This document shows positions 34,288 through 46,291 of a DNA stretch of 46,312 nt, one piece after another. This DNA is from an uncultured Alphaproteobacteria bacterium (GTDB lineage Bacteria > Pseudomonadota > Alphaproteobacteria > Rs-D84). The position numbers and the translations under genes were made by a program. The notes under the pieces are model-generated. The model ran no database searches. It had not been told where the DNA came from and worked only from the letters and a program-made list of their open reading frames with translations. Location: assembly GCA_947168075.1 (NCBI GenBank), contig CAMVKK010000001.1, forward strand, positions 1 to 46,312, given 5' to 3'. Every line of letters starts with the position of its first letter. Positions within the stretch are counted from its first letter, which is position 1.

Positions 34288-34317
34288 TTTACAAAAAAAC
34301 ACATAATTGAATATAAT
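34288..34317 (+). promoter_or_regulatory. putative promoter for the W-rich mini-peptide
   Basis: TTTACA, 18-nt spacer, TATAAT (34312-34317). Confidence 0.5.
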
Positions 34318-34354: not shown

Positions 34355-34468
34355 ATGTTTACAATTATATTTATTATTTTGAAATTGACGAAAACTGTTA
34401 AATGGTCATGGTGGTGGATACTGTTAACATTGGCACTGGATGGCGGATTTTTTGGCCGTATAATTTAA
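34355..34468 (+). CDS. 37-aa W-rich membrane peptide (Tmemb_185A / Fragile-X-F-like repeat unit), not in the ORF track
   Basis: AAAGGAG Shine-Dalgarno site 7 nt upstream of the ATG at 34355. Sequence MFTIIFIILKLTKTVKWSWWWILLTLALDGGFFGRII. Own promoter and terminator. Confidence 0.5.
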   Translation: MFTIIFIILKLTKTVKWSWWWILLTLALDGGFFGRII

Positions 34469-34480
34469 TATTTCATAAAT

Positions 34481-34510
34481 AAAACCGCGCCCAATTGGTG
34501 CGGTTTTTTT
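34481..34510 (+). terminator. intrinsic terminator after the mini-peptide gene
   Basis: ACCGCGCC-caatt-GGTGCGGT (one G-U pair) followed by TTTTTTT. Confidence 0.7.
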
Positions 34511-34517
34511 ATTTCAC

Positions 34518-34589
34518 TTGAAAAAAATGCCATTTTTTGGTATAATACCTGGTGCATTCAGGGACATTTTCGTCCCGTTTTTTATTTCC
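34518..34589 (+). promoter_or_regulatory. promoter + promoter-proximal terminator module, copy A
   Basis: TTGAAA (34518-34523), spacer aaaatGCCATTTTttgg, TATAAT (34541-34546), 14 nt, GGGAC-attttc-GTCCC (34561-34576), G, TTTTTT, ATTTCC. Paralogous to 44756-44826. Confidence 0.6.
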
Positions 34590-34617
34590 AAATTTTAATA
34601 AAACAAAAGGAAAAGAT

Positions 34618-35100
34618 ATGTCACGACAAATACAAATTCGGCGCGGCACCGCGGCGGAACATGCAACCTTTACCGGCGCAGTCGGTGAAGTTACAATGGA
34701 CACAACAAACAAAACACTTCGCGTACATGACGGAACAACCGTTGGTGGTATACCTCTGGCGCGTGCTGATGCGGTACCATCAGATATTACCAATAAAATG
34801 ATTCCTGATTATGCCAATGGCATAGCAATGAATATGACCATAACAGAACAAACATACACATGCCCGTCCAATGGTGTTATTATGGCCGACACCAGTGGGT
34901 TTAATTGGGCATATGGATATATCAAAATAAATGGTGTAACCATGTTTAATGTAACAACAAATGGCAGCGGATCTTTTGTTAACGGTAACGGTCAATTTAT
35001 TGTTGGTGCGGGCGACGTTATAGCCTATAAATCGGGCTATGTGCATGAAACCGTACATCCGTCAACAAATAAACTTACATTTTTTCCGTTTCGATCATGA
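34618..35100 (+). CDS. phage tail-fibre-like protein (hyaluronidase / Mtd N-terminal-type domain plus a small C-terminal tip)
   Basis: The N-terminus MSRQIQIRRGTAAEHATFTGAVGEVTMDTTNKTLRVHDGTTVGGIPLA is the conserved N-terminal module of many phage tail fibres. ATG at 34618 with AAGGA upstream. The track start at 34552 lies inside the leader. Confidence 0.75.
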   Translation: MSRQIQIRRGTAAEHATFTGAVGEVTMDTTNKTLRVHDGTTVGGIPLARADAVPSDITNKMIPDYANGIAMNMTITEQTYTCPSNGVIMADTSGFNWAYGYIKINGVTMFNVTTNGSGSFVNGNGQFIVGAGDVIAYKSGYVHETVHPSTNKLTFFPFRS

Positions 35101-36035
35101 TTTATGGAAAGATACACGAATAATGCCAAATAATTTAAAGATTACTTTATTTCCGACACGATAACGATGATATATAAATCTATGAACAAACCGGCGACTA
35201 CGTTCATGACGATATGTTGCTTTTACATCGGGGCGCGTTTTGGAAAAATCGCATTTTTTTAATTGTTGCCATTCGTATGCTGCGGTTTTGTCCGCCATTG
35301 CTTGAATTTTGGTGGTGTTTGCCATGGTATTTGCGCCATGCCAACGATATGAAAACAGAACTTTATCAATATACTTTATTTTTGCGTATTTTGATATCTG
35401 CATCATAAACCACCAATCTTCCAATGGTGCATCCGGTGTAAATTCACCGGTTTTTTTAAGTATATCTCGACGAATAAGGTATCCGTTCGGAATATAATTT
35501 CGACCAAACAATGTCGCATATGTTCCAAATTGTTCCGAATCAAAATCTATGTCGGCATTAGTTGCACGTAGAAATTCACCAAATGTTTTGTGGCATATAC
35601 ATTGTTACGCACCGCATCCCAATATGCGCGTTTCCCATCAGCATCAATAATTTCATTATCGCCAACCGCCAGTGCGTAATCTGGGTGTGATTCCATAAAT
35701 TCAATCAATGTTGATATTGCATTTGGTTTTGACATATCATCGGATGCAATATGATAGATATATTTACCACGCGCTTTTTCATAAAGTCTGTTTATAGTAC
35801 GACATGTTCCCATATTAGTTTGCGAATCAAAAAACACGCGTACGAATCGCGATTCCAGTTTTGGCATCATATCCAAAATTTTTTGTTTCGTGCTATCACG
35901 CGACCCATCGTCAATAATAACCAATTCAATATTATCATATGTCTGGGCAACCACAGAATTTAAACAGTCAACAATATATTTTTCATGATTGTATGCGGGA
36001 ATACATACAGACACCAATGGATGATTATTTAACAT
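35095..36035 (-). pseudogene. glycosyltransferase family 2, interrupted by a frameshift
   Basis: N-terminal fragment (36035-35547: VSVCIPAYNHEKYIVDCLNSVVAQTY..IDDGSRD..ASDD) and C-terminal fragment (to 35095: ..FGRNYIPNGYLIRRDI..) lie in different frames. Both frames are open only in 35550-35604, which contains a T4 run at 35586-35589. Confidence 0.65.
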
Positions 36036-43821: not shown

Positions 43822-43850
43822 ATTGTAATCGATAAAATCCCGTTTTTCAA
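43822..43850 (-). promoter_or_regulatory. putative promoter of the minus-strand glycan operon
   Basis: On the minus strand: TTGAAA (43850-43845, overlapping the upstream stop codon), 17-nt spacer, TACAAT (43827-43822). Confidence 0.5.
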
Positions 43851-44599
43851 GCGATAAAGGGCTTTTTATTTCGGTGTATTCCAGTGCAAAAATCTTGTAT
43901 TCTTGTCGCTCTTTTTTCCAAAAATTTCATTTGGTTATCCAACAATTGTTCCCAATCCGACTGTTCCCATGCCAGTGGCGAATGATTAAAAACATCATCT
44001 TTATATTTTCCAAAGAAAAAATTAATCCGACCATTTTCAACCAAATCACCCAAGAAAAAATACTCCACATACCCATCAAATGTTTTGAACAAATCAAAAA
44101 AATTTTTATCCGCACAAATCGTTGTATAAAGCGGATTTTGGGCATTTTTATCGTTATAATATCGACGAATACATTCCAGTGTTAAATCAAATCTGTCCTT
44201 TATCAGATGATTTCGTCCGCGTTCTACATTGATGGAATTTTTGCGTTTCGGAAAAAGAATTTCACCCCCAATTGTATGCGCCATATCCAAATATTTTTTA
44301 TATAGTTTTTTGTAATGATCGGACGTATTTTCCAAATGTTTTGCATTTATATTTTTATATTCTCTGTACCGTTCGTTCATATTCAGTATGCAATCACTGC
44401 CCAGGCGCATATTTTCGGGACTGTCGATATAAAGGTAATCATAGCTCATATCACCCCCAGGGGTCAGAATAATATTGTCCGATTTCCGGCTGTACAACAT
44501 TATCTGATATTCCCGTAATTTCTTGCTAAATATATCTGGATCGGTCCCCGATGAATCAACCCAAAAGTTAAGGTTCACATCTATATCTTGTAACTGCAT
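43847..44599 (-). CDS. conserved hypothetical protein (I recall the motifs as the uncharacterised DUF6994 family; unverified)
   Basis: 250 aa with GTDPDIFSKKLREYQ near the N-terminus and IKDRFDLTLECIRRYY in the middle. ATG at 44599 with AAAGGA upstream. The track's longer start would include its own promoter. Confidence 0.7.
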   Translation of the reverse strand: MQLQDIDVNLNFWVDSSGTDPDIFSKKLREYQIMLYSRKSDNIILTPGGDMSYDYLYIDSPENMRLGSDCILNMNERYREYKNINAKHLENTSDHYKKLYKKYLDMAHTIGGEILFPKRKNSINVERGRNHLIKDRFDLTLECIRRYYNDKNAQNPLYTTICADKNFFDLFKTFDGYVEYFFLGDLVENGRINFFFGKYKDDVFNHSPLAWEQSDWEQLLDNQMKFLEKRATRIQDFCTGIHRNKKPFIA

Positions 44600-44620
44600 T
44601 GAACTATCCTTTGAACCAAA

Positions 44621-44649
44621 ATTATACCACACGAATTAATAAATTACAA
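44621..44649 (-). promoter_or_regulatory. sigma70-type promoter of the DUF6994-like gene
   Basis: On the minus strand: TTGTAA (44649-44644), 17-nt spacer ending in TGG, TATAAT (44626-44621). Confidence 0.6.
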
Positions 44650-44666
44650 AATTATCACTACCCGAC

Positions 44667-44700
44667 AAAACAAAAACCGACCGAAACGGTCGGTTTGTGT
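44667..44700 (-). terminator. intrinsic terminator with no gene upstream of it (insulator-like)
   Basis: ACCGACCG-aaa-CGGTCGGT. On the minus strand it is followed by TTTTTGTTTTG. On the plus strand it is followed by TTGTGTT after the stem (weaker). Confidence 0.65.
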
Positions 44701-44755: not shown

Positions 44756-44826
44756 TTGATTTTTAGGCCATTTTATGATATAATCTCTGACAATTGAAGG
44801 CGCATTGTTGCGCCGTTTTTATTGCC
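44756..44826 (+). promoter_or_regulatory. promoter + promoter-proximal terminator module, copy B
   Basis: TTGATT (44756-44761), spacer tttagGCCATTTTatga, TATAAT (44779-44784), 14 nt, GGCGC-attgtt-GCGCC (44799-44814), G, TTTTT, ATTGCC. Confidence 0.6.
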
Positions 44827-44860
44827 TGCAATATCACCCACAAAATTTTGCAATTTTGCG

Positions 44861-44884
44861 GGGCCCAATGTGCGGGCTTTTTTT
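44861..44884 (+). terminator. second, weaker hairpin/U7 in the leader of the MuF-GH108 gene
   Basis: GCCC (44863-44866) pairs with GGGC (44874-44877), with a 7-nt loop and two possible G-U extensions, followed by TTTTTTT (44878-44884). Confidence 0.4.
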
Positions 44885-44903
44885 ATTTAACAAAGGATAT
44901 AAG

Positions 44904-45761
44904 ATGAACAAAATACCAGAAAACATATTAAACCTTATGCAAAGCGATGCATATGTAAATTCTAACAATCCAGAACACCAAAATGTTGCAAAGCAAATTC
45001 AAAATTATTTTGAAAACAAATATGGCAACAGCACGATTGATGCAACTGGACGCAATATAACGATTAGAAAAGCATGGTGCTGGCATGCCATAATAGACGA
45101 AAGAACTTGCGAAGATTGTGCAAGTTTTTCTGATACTATTTATGAAAACGAAGAAGATATCCCAGAACACCCACATCATGACAATTGTCGGTGCTGGATA
45201 GAAGAAATTGAATTAGATGATAATAACAAGCCTGTTGTTGATACTCGCAAACAAGGTATTATTCATAAAACCATGGCAGAGGAAGGCGGATATGTGGATA
45301 ATCCAAAACTGATTGATCAACCGACAAATTCAGGTATAACACAACCAACATTGGATAAATACAATGCAGATCATCCAGATTTTAATTTTCCAGATAAAGT
45401 GAAAGATTTATCACCAGAACAGGCACGTCAAATATACGGTGAAGATTACTATGACGAACGCCGTATTGGTGATATAGAAAACGAACGCATTGCCAACGCG
45501 ATATTTGATATGGGCGTTATGAGTAATTTCAATAATGTTGGAAAAATCGTCCAAGAAACATTAAACGATTCAATGGGAGCAAATCTAAAAACAGATGGTA
45601 AAATCGGTGACAATACCATAGATGCTTTGAACAATATACCGGATAATAAAATTGACGATTTTATGCAAGATTTAAAAGAAAACAGAATCGAGTATCTGCA
45701 AGGTTTATCTGATTGGGACAAATATGGAAACGGATGGACAAGTCGTACAAATAGATATTGA
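44904..45761 (+). CDS. fusion protein: phage MuF/SPP1-gp7-type C-terminal motif + GH108 N-acetylmuramidase + PG_binding_3 domain
   Basis: WCWHAIIDERTCEDCASFS...HPHHDNCRCW (MuF-type W..D.RtC..C...hpNCRC), then AEEGGYVDNP....TNSGIT (GH108 EGGY block), then KTDGKIGDNTIDAL...GNGWTSR (PG_binding_3). ATG at 44904 with AAAGGA upstream. No signal peptide. Confidence 0.8.
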   Translation: MNKIPENILNLMQSDAYVNSNNPEHQNVAKQIQNYFENKYGNSTIDATGRNITIRKAWCWHAIIDERTCEDCASFSDTIYENEEDIPEHPHHDNCRCWIEEIELDDNNKPVVDTRKQGIIHKTMAEEGGYVDNPKLIDQPTNSGITQPTLDKYNADHPDFNFPDKVKDLSPEQARQIYGEDYYDERRIGDIENERIANAIFDMGVMSNFNNVGKIVQETLNDSMGANLKTDGKIGDNTIDALNNIPDNKIDDFMQDLKENRIEYLQGLSDWDKYGNGWTSRTNRY

Positions 45762-45793: not shown

Positions 45794-46291
45794 ATGAAAA
45801 AGTTAGCGTTTGTATTATTATTGATAATTCCAATGGTTGCTGTTGCCGATAGGCGTAGTGATTTTGTTAATAAAATACTTGAATATGAAAACACACAAAC
45901 CGACAATAATACCGCACGAATAAATACGTATGGTGTAAATCAAGAAAAACTTGATATGTATCGGGCCGCACATCCGCGTTATAATTTTCCAGAATCCATA
46001 AAAAATTTAAATGAAAAACAAGCCAAACAAATTTTGTCTTATTTCTGGGACAATTACAGGTTTAGCGATTATAAGTATGATGAGATTCAAGAAAAAGTTT
46101 GGGATATGATGATTCATATGTCTATGTCTGATTTAGAAAAACAAATCAACGAATGTATTCGTAAATACTATAAATTTGATGCTAGTTTTTATGCGCCATT
46201 CGGTTCGGTTGCTTCTGTTAGTTTATTAAATGGCATGGCATCAAAACATATCCCTGATTTTTATTTGATATTAAACGAAGTCAAATACTGA
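45794..46291 (+). CDS. secreted GH108-like paralogue lacking the EGGY and PG-binding motifs
   Basis: Signal peptide MKKLAFVLLLIIPMVAVA. LDMYRAAHPRYNFPESIKNLNEKQAKQI aligns with LDKYNADHPDFNFPDKVKDLSPEQARQI of the upstream protein, and LEYENTQ replaces AEEGGYV. The track start at 45758 is TTG. No strong Shine-Dalgarno site at 45794. Confidence 0.65.
   Translation: MKKLAFVLLLIIPMVAVADRRSDFVNKILEYENTQTDNNTARINTYGVNQEKLDMYRAAHPRYNFPESIKNLNEKQAKQILSYFWDNYRFSDYKYDEIQEKVWDMMIHMSMSDLEKQINECIRKYYKFDASFYAPFGSVASVSLLNGMASKHIPDFYLILNEVKY

What the first reader, a model, noticed from the sequence alone, without database searches (positions are those of the whole stretch)
34518..34589. Paralogous promoter + promoter-proximal terminator module shared by the two phage-derived cassettes, with compensatory stem changes
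The two copies read as follows.
- Copy A (34518-34589): TTGAAA-aaaatGCCATTTTttgg-TATAAT-14 nt-GGGAC/attttc/GTCCC-G-TTTTTT-ATTTCC.
- Copy B (44756-44826): TTGATT-tttagGCCATTTTatga-TATAAT-14 nt-GGCGC/attgtt/GCGCC-G-TTTTT-ATTGCC.

The copies share several features.
- An identical GCCATTTT octamer sits at the same place in a 17-nt spacer.
- The distance from the -10 element to the hairpin is 14 nt in both.
- Both hairpins have a 5-bp stem and a 6-nt loop.
- The tail is the same (G, U-run, ATTnCC).

The two 5'-arm differences between the copies (G>C and A>G) are matched by complementary 3'-arm changes. This covariation argues for selection on RNA structure. The hairpin and U-tract would end transcripts at about +30, before the SD and ATG of the downstream gene.

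Copy A precedes the tail-fibre-like gene and copy B precedes the MuF-GH108 gene. Each copy is itself preceded by a strong terminator, so both are insulated cassettes. None of the housekeeping promoters I could read (2373, 6013, 7916, 31787) has the octamer or the hairpin.

The layout resembles phage late-gene control by processive antitermination, as in lambda PR'/tR' with a factor-binding element between -35 and -10. No antiterminator gene is visible in this window.
Basis: partly seen in the sequence, partly recalled or inferred. Interest (0 to 1): 0.72.

Follow-up and report, generated by a model that had tools for sequence, protein, structure and literature searches.

The report
Promoter-plus-terminator switch on domesticated phage genes
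The two look-alike segments are real members of a large family found in uncultured gut and rumen Alphaproteobacteria, in which a near-perfect promoter is followed at once by one or two stop-signal hairpins in front of single phage-derived genes, which suggests these scattered genes are held off until an unknown factor lets RNA polymerase read through.

Summary
Copy B is the best match to copy A in the whole window (42/66 identities; background 17.3±3.8).

Scans of public data recovered at least 81 distinct copies of the same module, all from Candidatus Enterousia-like gut and rumen Alphaproteobacteria. The module reads TTGA–(A/T)6–N5–TTTT–n–TG–r–TATAAT, then about 14 nt, then a GC-rich hairpin and a T-run. 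In 53 of 81 copies a second hairpin and T-run follow, then the SD and ATG.

Evidence that the hairpin is selected as structure:
- There are 42 different stem sequences.
- 95.6% of aligned cells pair, against 61.7% in shuffles.
- A search pattern that did not ask for a hairpin still found one in 67 of 114 hits (shuffles: 1.9).

The downstream genes identified all fell into five phage-derived classes plus one unknown protein: Mtd_N tail-fibre-like proteins, MuF-fused cell-wall hydrolases/toxins, lysozymes, an endolysin-like class, and a DNA methylase. They sit as single-gene cassettes among housekeeping genes.

Only the TTTT and the TG are conserved.

The best reading is promoter-proximal intrinsic termination relieved by a processive antiterminator of the AlpA, λ Q or GafZ type. 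This is an inference: no regulator was found.

The parts
34481..34507 (+). Strong intrinsic terminator of the upstream 37-aa membrane-protein gene (34355-34468). It insulates copy A from upstream transcription.
   Evidence: 11-bp stem followed by a T-run. Folds at -16.6 kcal/mol, z = -4.7.
34518..34546 (+). Copy A promoter: TTGAAA, an A-tract, variable TGCCA, a T-tract, TGg, then TATAAT. It is an extended -10 sigma-70 type with a 17-nt spacer.
   Evidence: 11/12 match to consensus with TG. It fits the family consensus TTGA-W6-N5-TTTT-n-TG-r-TATAAT.
34547..34560 (+). Initial transcribed region of copy A. The start site is predicted at about 34552-34556.
   Evidence: Across the family only a C/A at 7-8 nt after the -10 is conserved, as expected for a start site. 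The start site is inferred, not mapped.
34561..34583 (+). Copy A leader hairpin GGGAC/attttc/GTCCC, then G and T6. This is an intrinsic-terminator-like element ending at about +30.
   Evidence: Folds at -8.7 kcal/mol, z = -3.3. Conserved as structure in relatives.
34618..35100 (+). Gene controlled by copy A: a 160-aa Mtd_N tail-fibre-like protein (SD AGGA at 34608-34611).
   Evidence: Pfam PF18454, E = 1e-17, and phrog_9648 tail protein.
44756..44784 (+). Copy B promoter: TTGATT, a T-tract, variable GGCCA, TTTT, aTGa, then TATAAT.
   Evidence: Near-identical promoters occur in eight MAGs of Enterousia-like Alphaproteobacteria.
44785..44798 (+). Initial transcribed region of copy B. The start site is predicted at about 44790-44792.
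   Evidence: Inferred from the family-wide C/A at 7-8 nt after the -10.
44799..44820 (+). Copy B first leader hairpin GGCGCA/ttgt/TGCGCC, then G and T5.
   Evidence: Folds at -11.6 kcal/mol.
44824..44884 (+). Copy B second terminator-like structure. A basal stem GCCUGCA/UGCGGGC encloses a conserved ~40-nt insert hairpin, followed by T7.
   Evidence: Folds at -22.2 kcal/mol. Long and short versions occur in relatives.
44904..45761 (+). Gene controlled by copy B: a 285-aa fusion of a MuF fragment, GH108 and PG_binding_3 (SD AAGGA at 44893-44897).
   Evidence: Pfam PF04233 (25.4 bits, below the 29.6-bit cutoff), PF05838 and PF09374; phrog_315 endolysin.
45794..46291 (+). Second GH108-like gene with an N-terminal hydrophobic segment, 32 nt downstream. 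It may be co-transcribed with the copy B gene.
   Evidence: Pfam PF05838, E = 1.5e-4. Co-transcription is inferred from spacing only.

Best explanation
The two segments belong to a lineage-specific family of stereotyped transcription units in Candidatus Enterousia-like gut and rumen Alphaproteobacteria.

Layout of each unit:
- A near-consensus extended -10 sigma-70 promoter with characteristic A/T-tracts: TTGA-W6-N5-TTTT-n-TG-r-TATAAT.
- A start site about 7-8 nt after the -10.
- From about +7, a GC-rich hairpin of 5-12 bp followed directly by a U-tract. This is an intrinsic terminator ending at about +30.
- Often a second terminator, then the SD and ATG of a single phage-derived gene.

Shown here: the anatomy, its conservation, covariation in the stem, and the restriction of downstream genes to five phage-derived classes plus one protein of unknown function.

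Inferred: RNA polymerase starts efficiently but mostly stops in the leader. The genes are expressed only when polymerase becomes terminator-resistant, most likely through a factor that loads at or near the promoter, as AlpA, lambda Q and GafZ do. This would switch on all the scattered cassettes together. The hairpin sequences and initial transcribed regions differ between cassettes, so the shared recognition feature must lie in the conserved promoter or in the terminator geometry, not in an RNA sequence.
For: - The family exists. A genome scan found copy-B-type modules in eight Enterousia-like or alphaproteobacterial MAGs.
- The hairpin was not imposed by the search. 67 of 114 hits to a pattern without any hairpin constraint have a hairpin of at least 5 bp abutting the T-run, against 1.9±1.4 in shuffles.
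- Covariation is strong. On the model-based alignment of 95 modules, 95.6% of cells pair against 61.7% in shuffles. There are 179 double-change cells against 50, all six pairs show compensatory changes, and 0 of 500 shuffles reach the observed score.
- The unbiased sample agrees. Upstream regions of Mtd_N genes retrieved through the protein alone show promoter, hairpin and T-run in eight of nine lineages, with six different stems.
- Tandem terminators are common: 53 of 81 modules.
- Leader hairpins are weaker (mean -9.5 kcal/mol) than the strongest terminator-like hairpins elsewhere in the scanned stretch of the window (10-16 bp stems; -16.6 kcal/mol for the one that was folded). That suits a bypassable stop.
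- The 71 distinct downstream proteins form six clusters, five phage-derived and one unknown, with no housekeeping genes. The seven loci whose flanks were examined are chromosomal, and the first 32 kb of the window is housekeeping.
- The promoter architecture is specific to the module compared with other TTG-N20-TATAAT sites in the same loci.
- The same promoter motif in unrelated phages is followed by a hairpin in only 1 of 121 cases.
- A precedent exists. AlpA targets have an element between -35 and -10 and one or two intrinsic terminators upstream of the first ORF, and they drive lysis genes and a second locus (PMC7969949) that later work showed includes the peptidoglycan amidase AmpDh3 (PMC9998450). 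GafZ and lambda Q work similarly (PMC11150451).
Against: - No antiterminator gene was found in the window or in any locus.
- No conserved sequence-specific element lies between -35 and -10 beyond the A/T-tracts and TG.
- No conserved -10-like pause element lies in the initial transcribed region.
- The start site and termination have not been measured.
- The metagenome pattern required a T-run, so T-run conservation rests on the eight protein-retrieved lineages and on copies found in flanking sequence.
- The model-based alignment leans towards the imposed structure.
- One lineage (L060-L063) expresses the orthologous Mtd_N gene without the module.
Confidence: 0.5

Rival explanations
1. The module is a factor-independent attenuator. 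A very strong promoter plus leaky terminators sets a low, low-noise output. Alternatively, output follows global changes in termination efficiency (NTP pools, ppGpp, NusA/NusG). The 5' hairpin may also stabilise read-through mRNA. No dedicated antiterminator would exist.
For: - Leader stems are short (mode 6-7 bp, mean -9.5 kcal/mol) and weaker than the strongest terminator-like hairpins elsewhere in the window, so some read-through is expected.
- No regulator gene and no conserved sequence-specific element were found in the spacer or the initial transcribed region.
Against: - A weak promoter would achieve low output more simply. Instead a near-consensus promoter and often two tandem terminators are conserved across deep divergence (41% protein identity).
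- The restriction to five phage-derived gene classes plus one unknown protein suggests co-regulation rather than simple dimming.
- The hairpin starts about 6-7 nt from the predicted 5' end, which is further than is typical for 5'-end protection (own knowledge).
Confidence: 0.25
2. An RNA-binding antiterminator acts on the leader hairpin or leader RNA, as with N/boxB, put, EAR or LoaP.
For: - The hairpin lies close to the promoter, as nut and put elements do.
- The second terminator of copy-B-type leaders carries a nearly invariant ~40-nt insert that could be a binding site.
Against: - There are 42 different stems, and loops vary in both length (3-7 nt) and sequence. The initial transcribed region is not conserved.
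- The conserved insert is absent from copy A and from many other family members.
- No Rfam family matches.
Confidence: 0.08
3. The short transcript of about 30 nt (or about 90 nt when there are two hairpins) is itself the product, for example a small RNA or decoy. The downstream gene would then be expressed only incidentally.
For: A strong promoter followed by a terminator is the anatomy of a small-RNA gene.
Against: - Apart from the U-tract, the transcribed sequence is not conserved, so no shared target-pairing sequence exists.
- An SD and ATG follow at a fixed short distance (median 53 nt) in nearly all copies.
- The association is with particular protein families.
Confidence: 0.05
4. The resemblance is chance: two strong promoters that each happen to be followed by a hairpin. 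Alternatively, the inverted repeat is a DNA operator.
For: Part of the similarity is generic promoter consensus (TTGA, TG, TATAAT). The octamer also occurs in unrelated phage promoters.
Against: - The identity has a z-score of about 6.5.
- The family has at least 81 members with the same geometry, and the stem covaries.
- An operator for one protein would conserve its sequence, not only its pairing.
Confidence: 0.01

Closest known systems
AlpA-dependent antitermination in Pseudomonas aeruginosa (alpBCDE and PA0807-PA0829 loci; PMC7969949, PMC9371919)
   Same: - Chromosomal loci of phage or lysis character, including a peptidoglycan amidase (AmpDh3; PMC9998450).
- A sigma-70 promoter followed by one or two intrinsic terminators upstream of the first ORF.
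- More than one dispersed locus shares the arrangement.
- The factor-binding element is proposed to lie between -35 and -10.
   Different: - Two loci there, against what appear to be many single-gene cassettes per genome here.
- No AlpA-family gene was identified here, and no conserved sequence-specific spacer element, only A/T-tracts.
- The terminator here starts within about 7 nt of the start site.
- The lineage is an unrelated, uncultured alphaproteobacterium.
Lambdoid late control: PR' promoter, Q-binding element, sigma-dependent pause, tR' terminator, Q protein
   Same: A strong, constitutive-looking promoter followed by a terminator that blocks late phage genes such as lysis and tail genes.
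   Different: - Lambda has one promoter for a ~20-kb operon, with the Q gene immediately upstream. Here there are many one-gene units and no Q gene nearby.
- No conserved -10-like pause element was found.
- The terminator is at about +30 here, against +194 in lambda (own knowledge).
GafY/GafZ control of the Caulobacter gene transfer agent and its ~18 accessory promoters (PMC11150451)
   Same: An alphaproteobacterium with phage-derived genes scattered around the chromosome and co-regulated from related promoters. Antitermination by a factor (GafZ) whose putative DNA element lies between -10 and -35.
   Different: - GafY-dependent promoters have a degenerate -35 and need an activator plus IHF. 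Here the -35 and extended -10 are near consensus.
- The Caulobacter terminator lies after the first gene of a 14-kb cluster and is made of 150-bp repeats.
- No GTA structural cluster or gafYZ homologue was examined here.
Prophage 'morons' (independent promoter-gene-terminator units; own knowledge)
   Same: Single accessory genes of phage origin with their own sigma-70 promoter. The methylase cassettes sit at the ends of P2-like prophages.
   Different: In a moron the terminator follows the gene. Here the terminator or terminators lie between the promoter and the gene. Many cassettes here are long-term chromosomal residents in conserved synteny.

Membership tests
Intrinsic (Rho-independent) terminator | GC-rich stem-loop immediately followed by a U-tract on the transcribed strand | tested here: met
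   Copy A has a 5-bp stem (4 GC), then G and T6. Copy B has a 6-bp stem (5 GC), then G and T5, plus a second structure followed by T7. Family-wide, stems are 5-12 bp and T-runs mostly 5-7.
Intrinsic (Rho-independent) terminator | Actual release of transcripts at the U-tract | not testable with these tools
   This needs in vitro transcription, Term-seq or metatranscriptome 3' ends.
Extended -10 sigma-70 promoter | TTGACA-like -35, a 17±1 nt spacer, and TGnTATAAT | tested here: met
   Copy A: TTGAAA-17-TGgTATAAT. Copy B: TTGATT-17-TGaTATAAT. The core elements (TTGA, TG, TATAAT) are invariant or nearly so in the 48-module alignment, though several were required by the search patterns. The start site was not mapped.
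Lambda-Q-type late promoter/terminator system | Conserved factor-binding DNA element between -35 and -10 | tested here: inconclusive
Only the W6 tract after the -35 and TTTT before the TG are shared, and the central N5 varies.
Lambda-Q-type late promoter/terminator system | A -10-like (TAnnnT) sigma-dependent pause element in the initial transcribed region | tested here: not met
   Position-by-position composition of 81 initial transcribed regions shows only a C/A at 7-8 nt after the -10 and no conserved hexamer.
Lambda-Q-type late promoter/terminator system | Antiterminator gene directly upstream of the promoter | tested here: not met
   Upstream of copy A lies a 37-aa membrane protein. Upstream of copy B lies a divergent DUF6994 gene. 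The Pfam scan of 30 ORFs from the first 32 kb (plus one ORF at 42 kb) lists housekeeping families, but only 25 of 62 families were displayed.
AlpA-type antitermination regulon | One or two intrinsic terminators between the promoter and the first ORF at several loci | tested here: met
   Copy A has one terminator and copy B has two. 53 of 81 family members have two.
AlpA-type antitermination regulon | Presence of an AlpA-family (PF05930) regulator | not tested
   Whole genomes of the lineage could not be scanned. None was seen among the genes annotated in the loci.
GafYZ-type GTA regulon | Activator-dependent promoter with a degenerate -35 | tested here: not met
   The -35 begins TTGA in 80 of the 81 compiled modules, though most were retrieved with patterns that required TTGA; two protein-retrieved relatives read TTGTAA (L206) and TTGCAA (L065). 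The feature itself is described in PMC11150451.
N/nut (boxB) or other RNA-element antitermination | Conserved hairpin or loop sequence recognised by the factor | tested here: not met
   There are 42 distinct stems, and loops of 3-7 nt with varied sequence.
Any described RNA family (Rfam 15) | Score at or above the family's gathering threshold | tested here: not met
   No hit at gathering threshold in the window. Only weak, terminator-driven matches appear with the E-value threshold.

The most novel reading that the evidence does not exclude
The modules mark a previously unrecognised antitermination regulon. In this reading an unidentified factor, host-encoded or brought in by an infecting or induced phage, converts RNA polymerase at a stereotyped A/T-tract promoter into a terminator-resistant form. 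That would switch on the dispersed cassettes together. These are single-gene cassettes of domesticated phage functions: receptor-binding-like proteins, endolysins, MuF-fused cell-wall toxins and a methylase. The result would be a gene-transfer-agent-like, programmed-lysis or phage-responsive defence programme in a little-known group of gut Alphaproteobacteria.
Probability: 0.35. Interest if true: 0.8.

Novelty: new variant of a known kind. Interest (0 to 1): 0.63.

Why it matters
If the reading is right, uncultured gut and rumen Alphaproteobacteria keep a set of domesticated phage genes under one simple switch: a strong promoter, an immediate stop, and a bypass.

- This gives a sequence signature that can define the whole regulon in any genome of the lineage.
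- It predicts an undiscovered antiterminator, which can be searched for by asking which genes co-occur with the module across genomes.
- It offers compact natural promoter-terminator parts with dozens of sequence-diverse but equivalent hairpins. These are useful for studying what makes a terminator bypassable.
- It links MuF-type polymorphic toxins and small Mtd_N proteins to a shared control mechanism. Their biology outside prophages is unknown.

Tried and rejected
- **Octamer as a diagnostic.** A viral scan with TTGA-N7-GCCATTTT-N4-TATAAT gave 37 stretches carrying 36 unrelated promoters, none followed by the hairpin. I rejected the octamer as a marker.
- **Sequence alignment plus RNAalifold.** A MAFFT alignment of 48 modules gave no consensus structure because stems of different length were out of register. 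I replaced it with a covariance model built from 14 in-register seeds and a model-based alignment.
- **Exact-sequence look-up of the MuF-GH108 protein.** It is not on record.
- **Rfam.** Nothing at gathering threshold, and only weak terminator-driven matches at the E-value threshold.
- **Annotated phages.** blastn of the copy B leader found no match. The GH108 part of the protein is about 30% identical to endolysins of phages of Alphaproteobacteria and other bacteria.
- **Promoter motif alone in viral contigs.** 121 matches, of which one is followed by a hairpin and T-run. The promoter motif therefore does not by itself imply the hairpin.
- **Search for a regulator.** None was found in the window or among annotated neighbours of the cassettes. 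A 72-aa basic protein is divergently paired with copy-B-type modules in six loci and matches no family. It is absent from the window, so it remains a lead only.
- **GTA (GafYZ) membership.** I considered it and did not adopt it, because the promoters have a consensus -35 and no GTA cluster was examined.
- **Integron attC-like or operator readings of the inverted repeat.** Rejected, because pairing is conserved but sequence is not, and a U-tract always follows.

Full report
**1. The observation**

- Copy A: TTGAAA (34518-34523), a 17-nt spacer ending in TGG, TATAAT (34541-34546), 14 nt, GGGAC/attttc/GTCCC (34561-34576), G, T6.
- Copy B: TTGATT (44756-44761), a 17-nt spacer ending in TGA, TATAAT (44779-44784), 14 nt, GGCGC(A)/ttgt/(T)GCGCC (44799-44814), G, T5.

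The two stem differences are complementary on both arms. Copy B is the single best ungapped match to copy A on either strand of the window: 42/66 identities, against a mean of 17.3 (sd 3.8) and a next-best of 35. Outside the generic TTGA, TG and TATAAT positions, 30 of 54 positions are identical. The hairpins fold at -8.7 and -11.6 kcal/mol, with z-scores of -3.3 and -2.5.

- a 160-aa Mtd_N tail-fibre-like protein (34618-35100);
- a 285-aa fusion of a MuF fragment, GH108 and PG_binding_3 (44904-45761).

Two corrections are needed.
- Copy B has a second, larger terminator-like structure before its SD. It has a basal stem at 44824-44830/44871-44877 enclosing an inner hairpin, followed by T7 at 44878-44884, and folds at -22.2 kcal/mol.
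- The hairpin upstream of copy B (44674-44696) has its T-run on the minus strand. It serves the divergent DUF6994 gene rather than insulating copy B.

**2. Where the window comes from**

The first 32 kb encode housekeeping proteins: MutL, RecA, YebC, BipA, LptF/G, RuvC, MnmE, SecB, MltA and others. From 35 to 44 kb there is a glycosyltransferase cluster. DNA-pattern hits and protein relatives come from MAGs named Candidatus Enterousia or "Alphaproteobacteria bacterium", taken from gut and rumen. The two cassettes therefore sit in a bacterial chromosome, not in a prophage.

**3. The module is one of a large family**

*Genome scan.* I scanned the genome collection for promoter plus GGNNC-N6-GNNCC-GTTTT. 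It returned copy-B-type modules from eight such MAGs. They lie in front of MuF-GH108 genes, a MuF-Tlde1/YkuD toxin, a smaller MuF-like protein, an unknown 216-aa protein, and an Mtd_N protein.

*Metagenome scan.* I then scanned metagenomes with a pattern that constrains only the promoter and a T-run: TTGA-W5-N6-TTTT-N-TG-N-TATAAT-N28-40-TTTTTATT. Of 114 distinct hits, 67 have a GC-rich hairpin of at least 5 bp ending exactly at the T-run. Shuffles of the same segments give 1.9±1.4.

*Geometry.* I compiled 81 distinct modules carrying 42 distinct stem sequences. Their geometry is:

| Feature | Value |
|---|---|
| -10 to stem | median 14 nt |
| Stem length | 5-12 bp, mode 6-7 |
| Loop length | 3-7 nt |
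| Hairpin energy | mean -9.5 kcal/mol |
| Second hairpin and T-run before the ATG | 53 of 81 |
| Stem end to ATG | median 53 nt |

*Covariance model.* A model built from 14 in-register seeds, which include both window copies, finds only those two copies in the window (86.9 and 69.7 bits; next-best 22 bits). Their high scores are partly by construction, so the informative point is the absence of any third copy. The model finds 95 copies in the loci held. On that alignment:
- 95.6% of cells pair, against 61.7% in shuffles;
- 179 cells show changes on both sides, against 50;
- all six pairs have compensatory variants;
- the covariation score is 0.851 against 0.237, and 0 of 500 shuffles reach it.

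This alignment is fitted to the structure and so leans towards it. The hairpin-agnostic test above does not have that bias.

**4. An unbiased sample**

The DNA patterns required a T-run, so I also retrieved relatives of the Mtd_N gene through its protein sequence and read their upstream regions. Eight of nine lineages have the module. Protein identity in the sample goes down to 41%, and the gene stays convergent with a glycosyltransferase cluster in every lineage. Each has the promoter, a hairpin and a T-run. The stems are GGGAC (three lineages), CGCTGATGC, CGGTGCA (with a bulge), GCGCCGCC, CGACGG and CACCACCC. Two of the eight also have a clear second terminator. One lineage (L060-L063) lacks the module after a rearrangement next to phage-like genes. 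The hairpin and U-tract are therefore maintained while their sequence turns over, which is what selection on structure predicts.

**5. What is and is not conserved in the promoter**

The family consensus is TTGA-(T6 or A6)-N5-TTTT-n-TG-r-TATAAT. Other TTG-N20-TATAAT sites in front of genes in the same loci lack the tracts.

GCCA lies in the variable N5, and TTTT is shared by the family. The same octamer also occurs in 36 unrelated phage promoters that have no hairpin. It is therefore not evidence of a factor-binding site.

In the initial transcribed region only a C/A at 7-8 nt after the -10 is conserved. That is the expected signature of a start site. No -10-like pause hexamer is conserved there. 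The promoter motif alone, in unrelated phage contigs, is followed by a hairpin and T-run in only 1 of 121 cases.

**6. Which genes follow the module**

The 71 distinct downstream proteins form six clusters (annotation).

| Cluster | Members |
|---|---|
| MuF-fragment fusions to GH108, Tlde1/YkuD or PG-binding domains | 22 |
| Mtd_N or collagen-like tail-fibre proteins | 22 |
| GH24 phage lysozymes | 8 |
| EcoRI-like adenine methylases | 7 |
| "NNPGN" endolysin-like proteins (phrog_873) | 7 |
| Unknown 216-aa protein | 5 |

None is a housekeeping gene. Flanking genes in the loci examined are chromosomal, for example lepA, acpP/fabF, ligA and polysaccharide clusters. In three loci (L074, L102, L141) the methylase cassettes lie at the ends of P2-like prophages, which use an NNPGN protein as their endolysin.

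**7. Mechanism**

*What is shown.* A near-consensus promoter is followed, before the ribosome-binding site, by one or two elements with the full anatomy of intrinsic terminators. These are conserved as structure.

*What follows from established knowledge.* Such an element stops a fraction of polymerases, so full expression needs read-through.

*The best-fitting model.* Processive antitermination by a factor loaded at the promoter. The closest known case is AlpA of Pseudomonas aeruginosa. Its two chromosomal target loci have an AlpA-binding element between -35 and -10 and one or two intrinsic terminators upstream of the first ORF. One locus encodes lysis genes (PMC7969949), and the other includes the peptidoglycan amidase AmpDh3 (PMC9998450). 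Lambda Q and Caulobacter GafZ are of the same kind (PMC11150451).

*Arguments in favour.*
- The conserved strong promoter.
- The tandem terminators.
- Leader hairpins that are weaker than the strongest terminator-like hairpins elsewhere in the window.
- The narrow set of gene classes.
- The shared features lie in the promoter and in the geometry, not in the RNA sequence. This last point argues against an N/boxB- or put-like RNA-binding mechanism.

*Arguments against.* No regulator gene was found. There is no sequence-specific spacer element and no pause element. There are no transcript data.

*Main rival.* A factor-independent attenuator, or an element that responds to global termination efficiency (confidence 0.25). 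A small-RNA product is unlikely because the transcribed sequence is not conserved. Chance similarity is excluded.

**8. Comparison and novelty**

The arrangement works like an AlpA- or Q-type switch, but I cannot file it as a member of either family. The defining regulator, binding element and pause element were not found or not met. It differs from GafY-dependent GTA promoters because its -35 is consensus. It differs from prophage morons because the terminator comes before the gene. No Rfam family and no annotated phage carries it. I found no description of it in the few targeted literature searches I ran. I rate it a new variant of a known kind: a multi-copy, single-gene-cassette form of promoter-proximal termination control, in a little-studied lineage.

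**9. Verdict**

The module, the covariation and the link to phage-derived genes are confirmed and extended. The octamer as a factor-binding site is not supported. Antitermination is plausible but unproven.

Noticed in passing
window 35095-36035 (-): The GT2 glycosyltransferase gene convergent with the Mtd_N gene is broken into a 162-aa N-terminal part and a 138-aa C-terminal part in another frame. In the relative L060 it is one intact 318-aa gene. This is either a pseudogene or an assembly error.
   Followed up: partly
window 34355-34468 (+), promoter-like site 34288-34317, terminator 34481-34507: A 37-aa membrane-protein gene matches phage family phrog_1374 and has its own promoter-like site and an 11-bp terminator. 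It lies directly upstream of copy A. It is conserved next to copy-A-type modules in L059, L194 and L147.
   Followed up: partly
window 34618-35100 and loci L059, L060, L064, L065, L206, L209, L213, L216: The small Mtd_N gene is always convergent with a glycosyltransferase or polysaccharide gene cluster (DUF1796 genes in most lineages, other sugar-modifying genes in L213). This holds down to 41% protein identity. It points to a long-resident gene functionally tied to surface polysaccharide, not a recent prophage remnant.
   Followed up: partly
window 44831-44870; also L040, L049, L054, L057, L058 and others: The loop of copy B's second terminator holds a ~40-nt insert (CACCCACAAAATTTTGCAATTTTGCGGGG...) that is nearly invariant across species, while the neighbouring leader sequence varies. 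L055, L050 and L108 have the same terminator without the insert. It may be a separate functional element.
   Followed up: partly
L040, L055, L058, L101, L116, L132 (not in the window): A 72-aa basic protein (MKQYKHFQEIEPNNK...) is encoded divergently right next to copy-B-type modules in six loci. It matches nothing in Pfam, NCBIfam or PADLOC. It could be a regulator or an immunity protein.
   Followed up: partly
window 44904-45761; L054, L136, L177, L049: The MuF-fragment proteins behind the module are polymorphic. The same N-terminal part is fused to GH108/PG_binding_3, to Tlde1/YkuD-type domains, or to PG_binding_1. This is the pattern described for MuF polymorphic toxins (PMC5576092), but here it occurs outside prophages.
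   Followed up: partly
window 43847-44649 (-): The DUF6994 gene probably starts at 44599 (MQLQDID...), not at the GTG at 44632. An extended -10 promoter (TTGTAA-17-TGgTATAAT) occupies 44649-44621 on the minus strand, and it has no leader hairpin.
   Followed up: no
L058 2524-4991: One module cassette (the unknown 216-aa protein followed by an overlapping DUF488 gene) lies next to an Abi_alpha abortive-infection gene. Some cassettes may therefore sit in defence-island-like regions.
   Followed up: no
L057 3420-3800: An intact module is followed by a MuF gene interrupted by a stop after 17 codons. The promoter-terminator unit appears to outlive its gene here.
   Followed up: no
L074, L102, L141: P2-like prophages of this lineage have a tail sheath, tape measure and gpD-like genes, and a lysis cassette that uses an NNPGN-type endolysin. 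They carry the EcoRI-like methylase cassette with the module near one end.
   Followed up: partly
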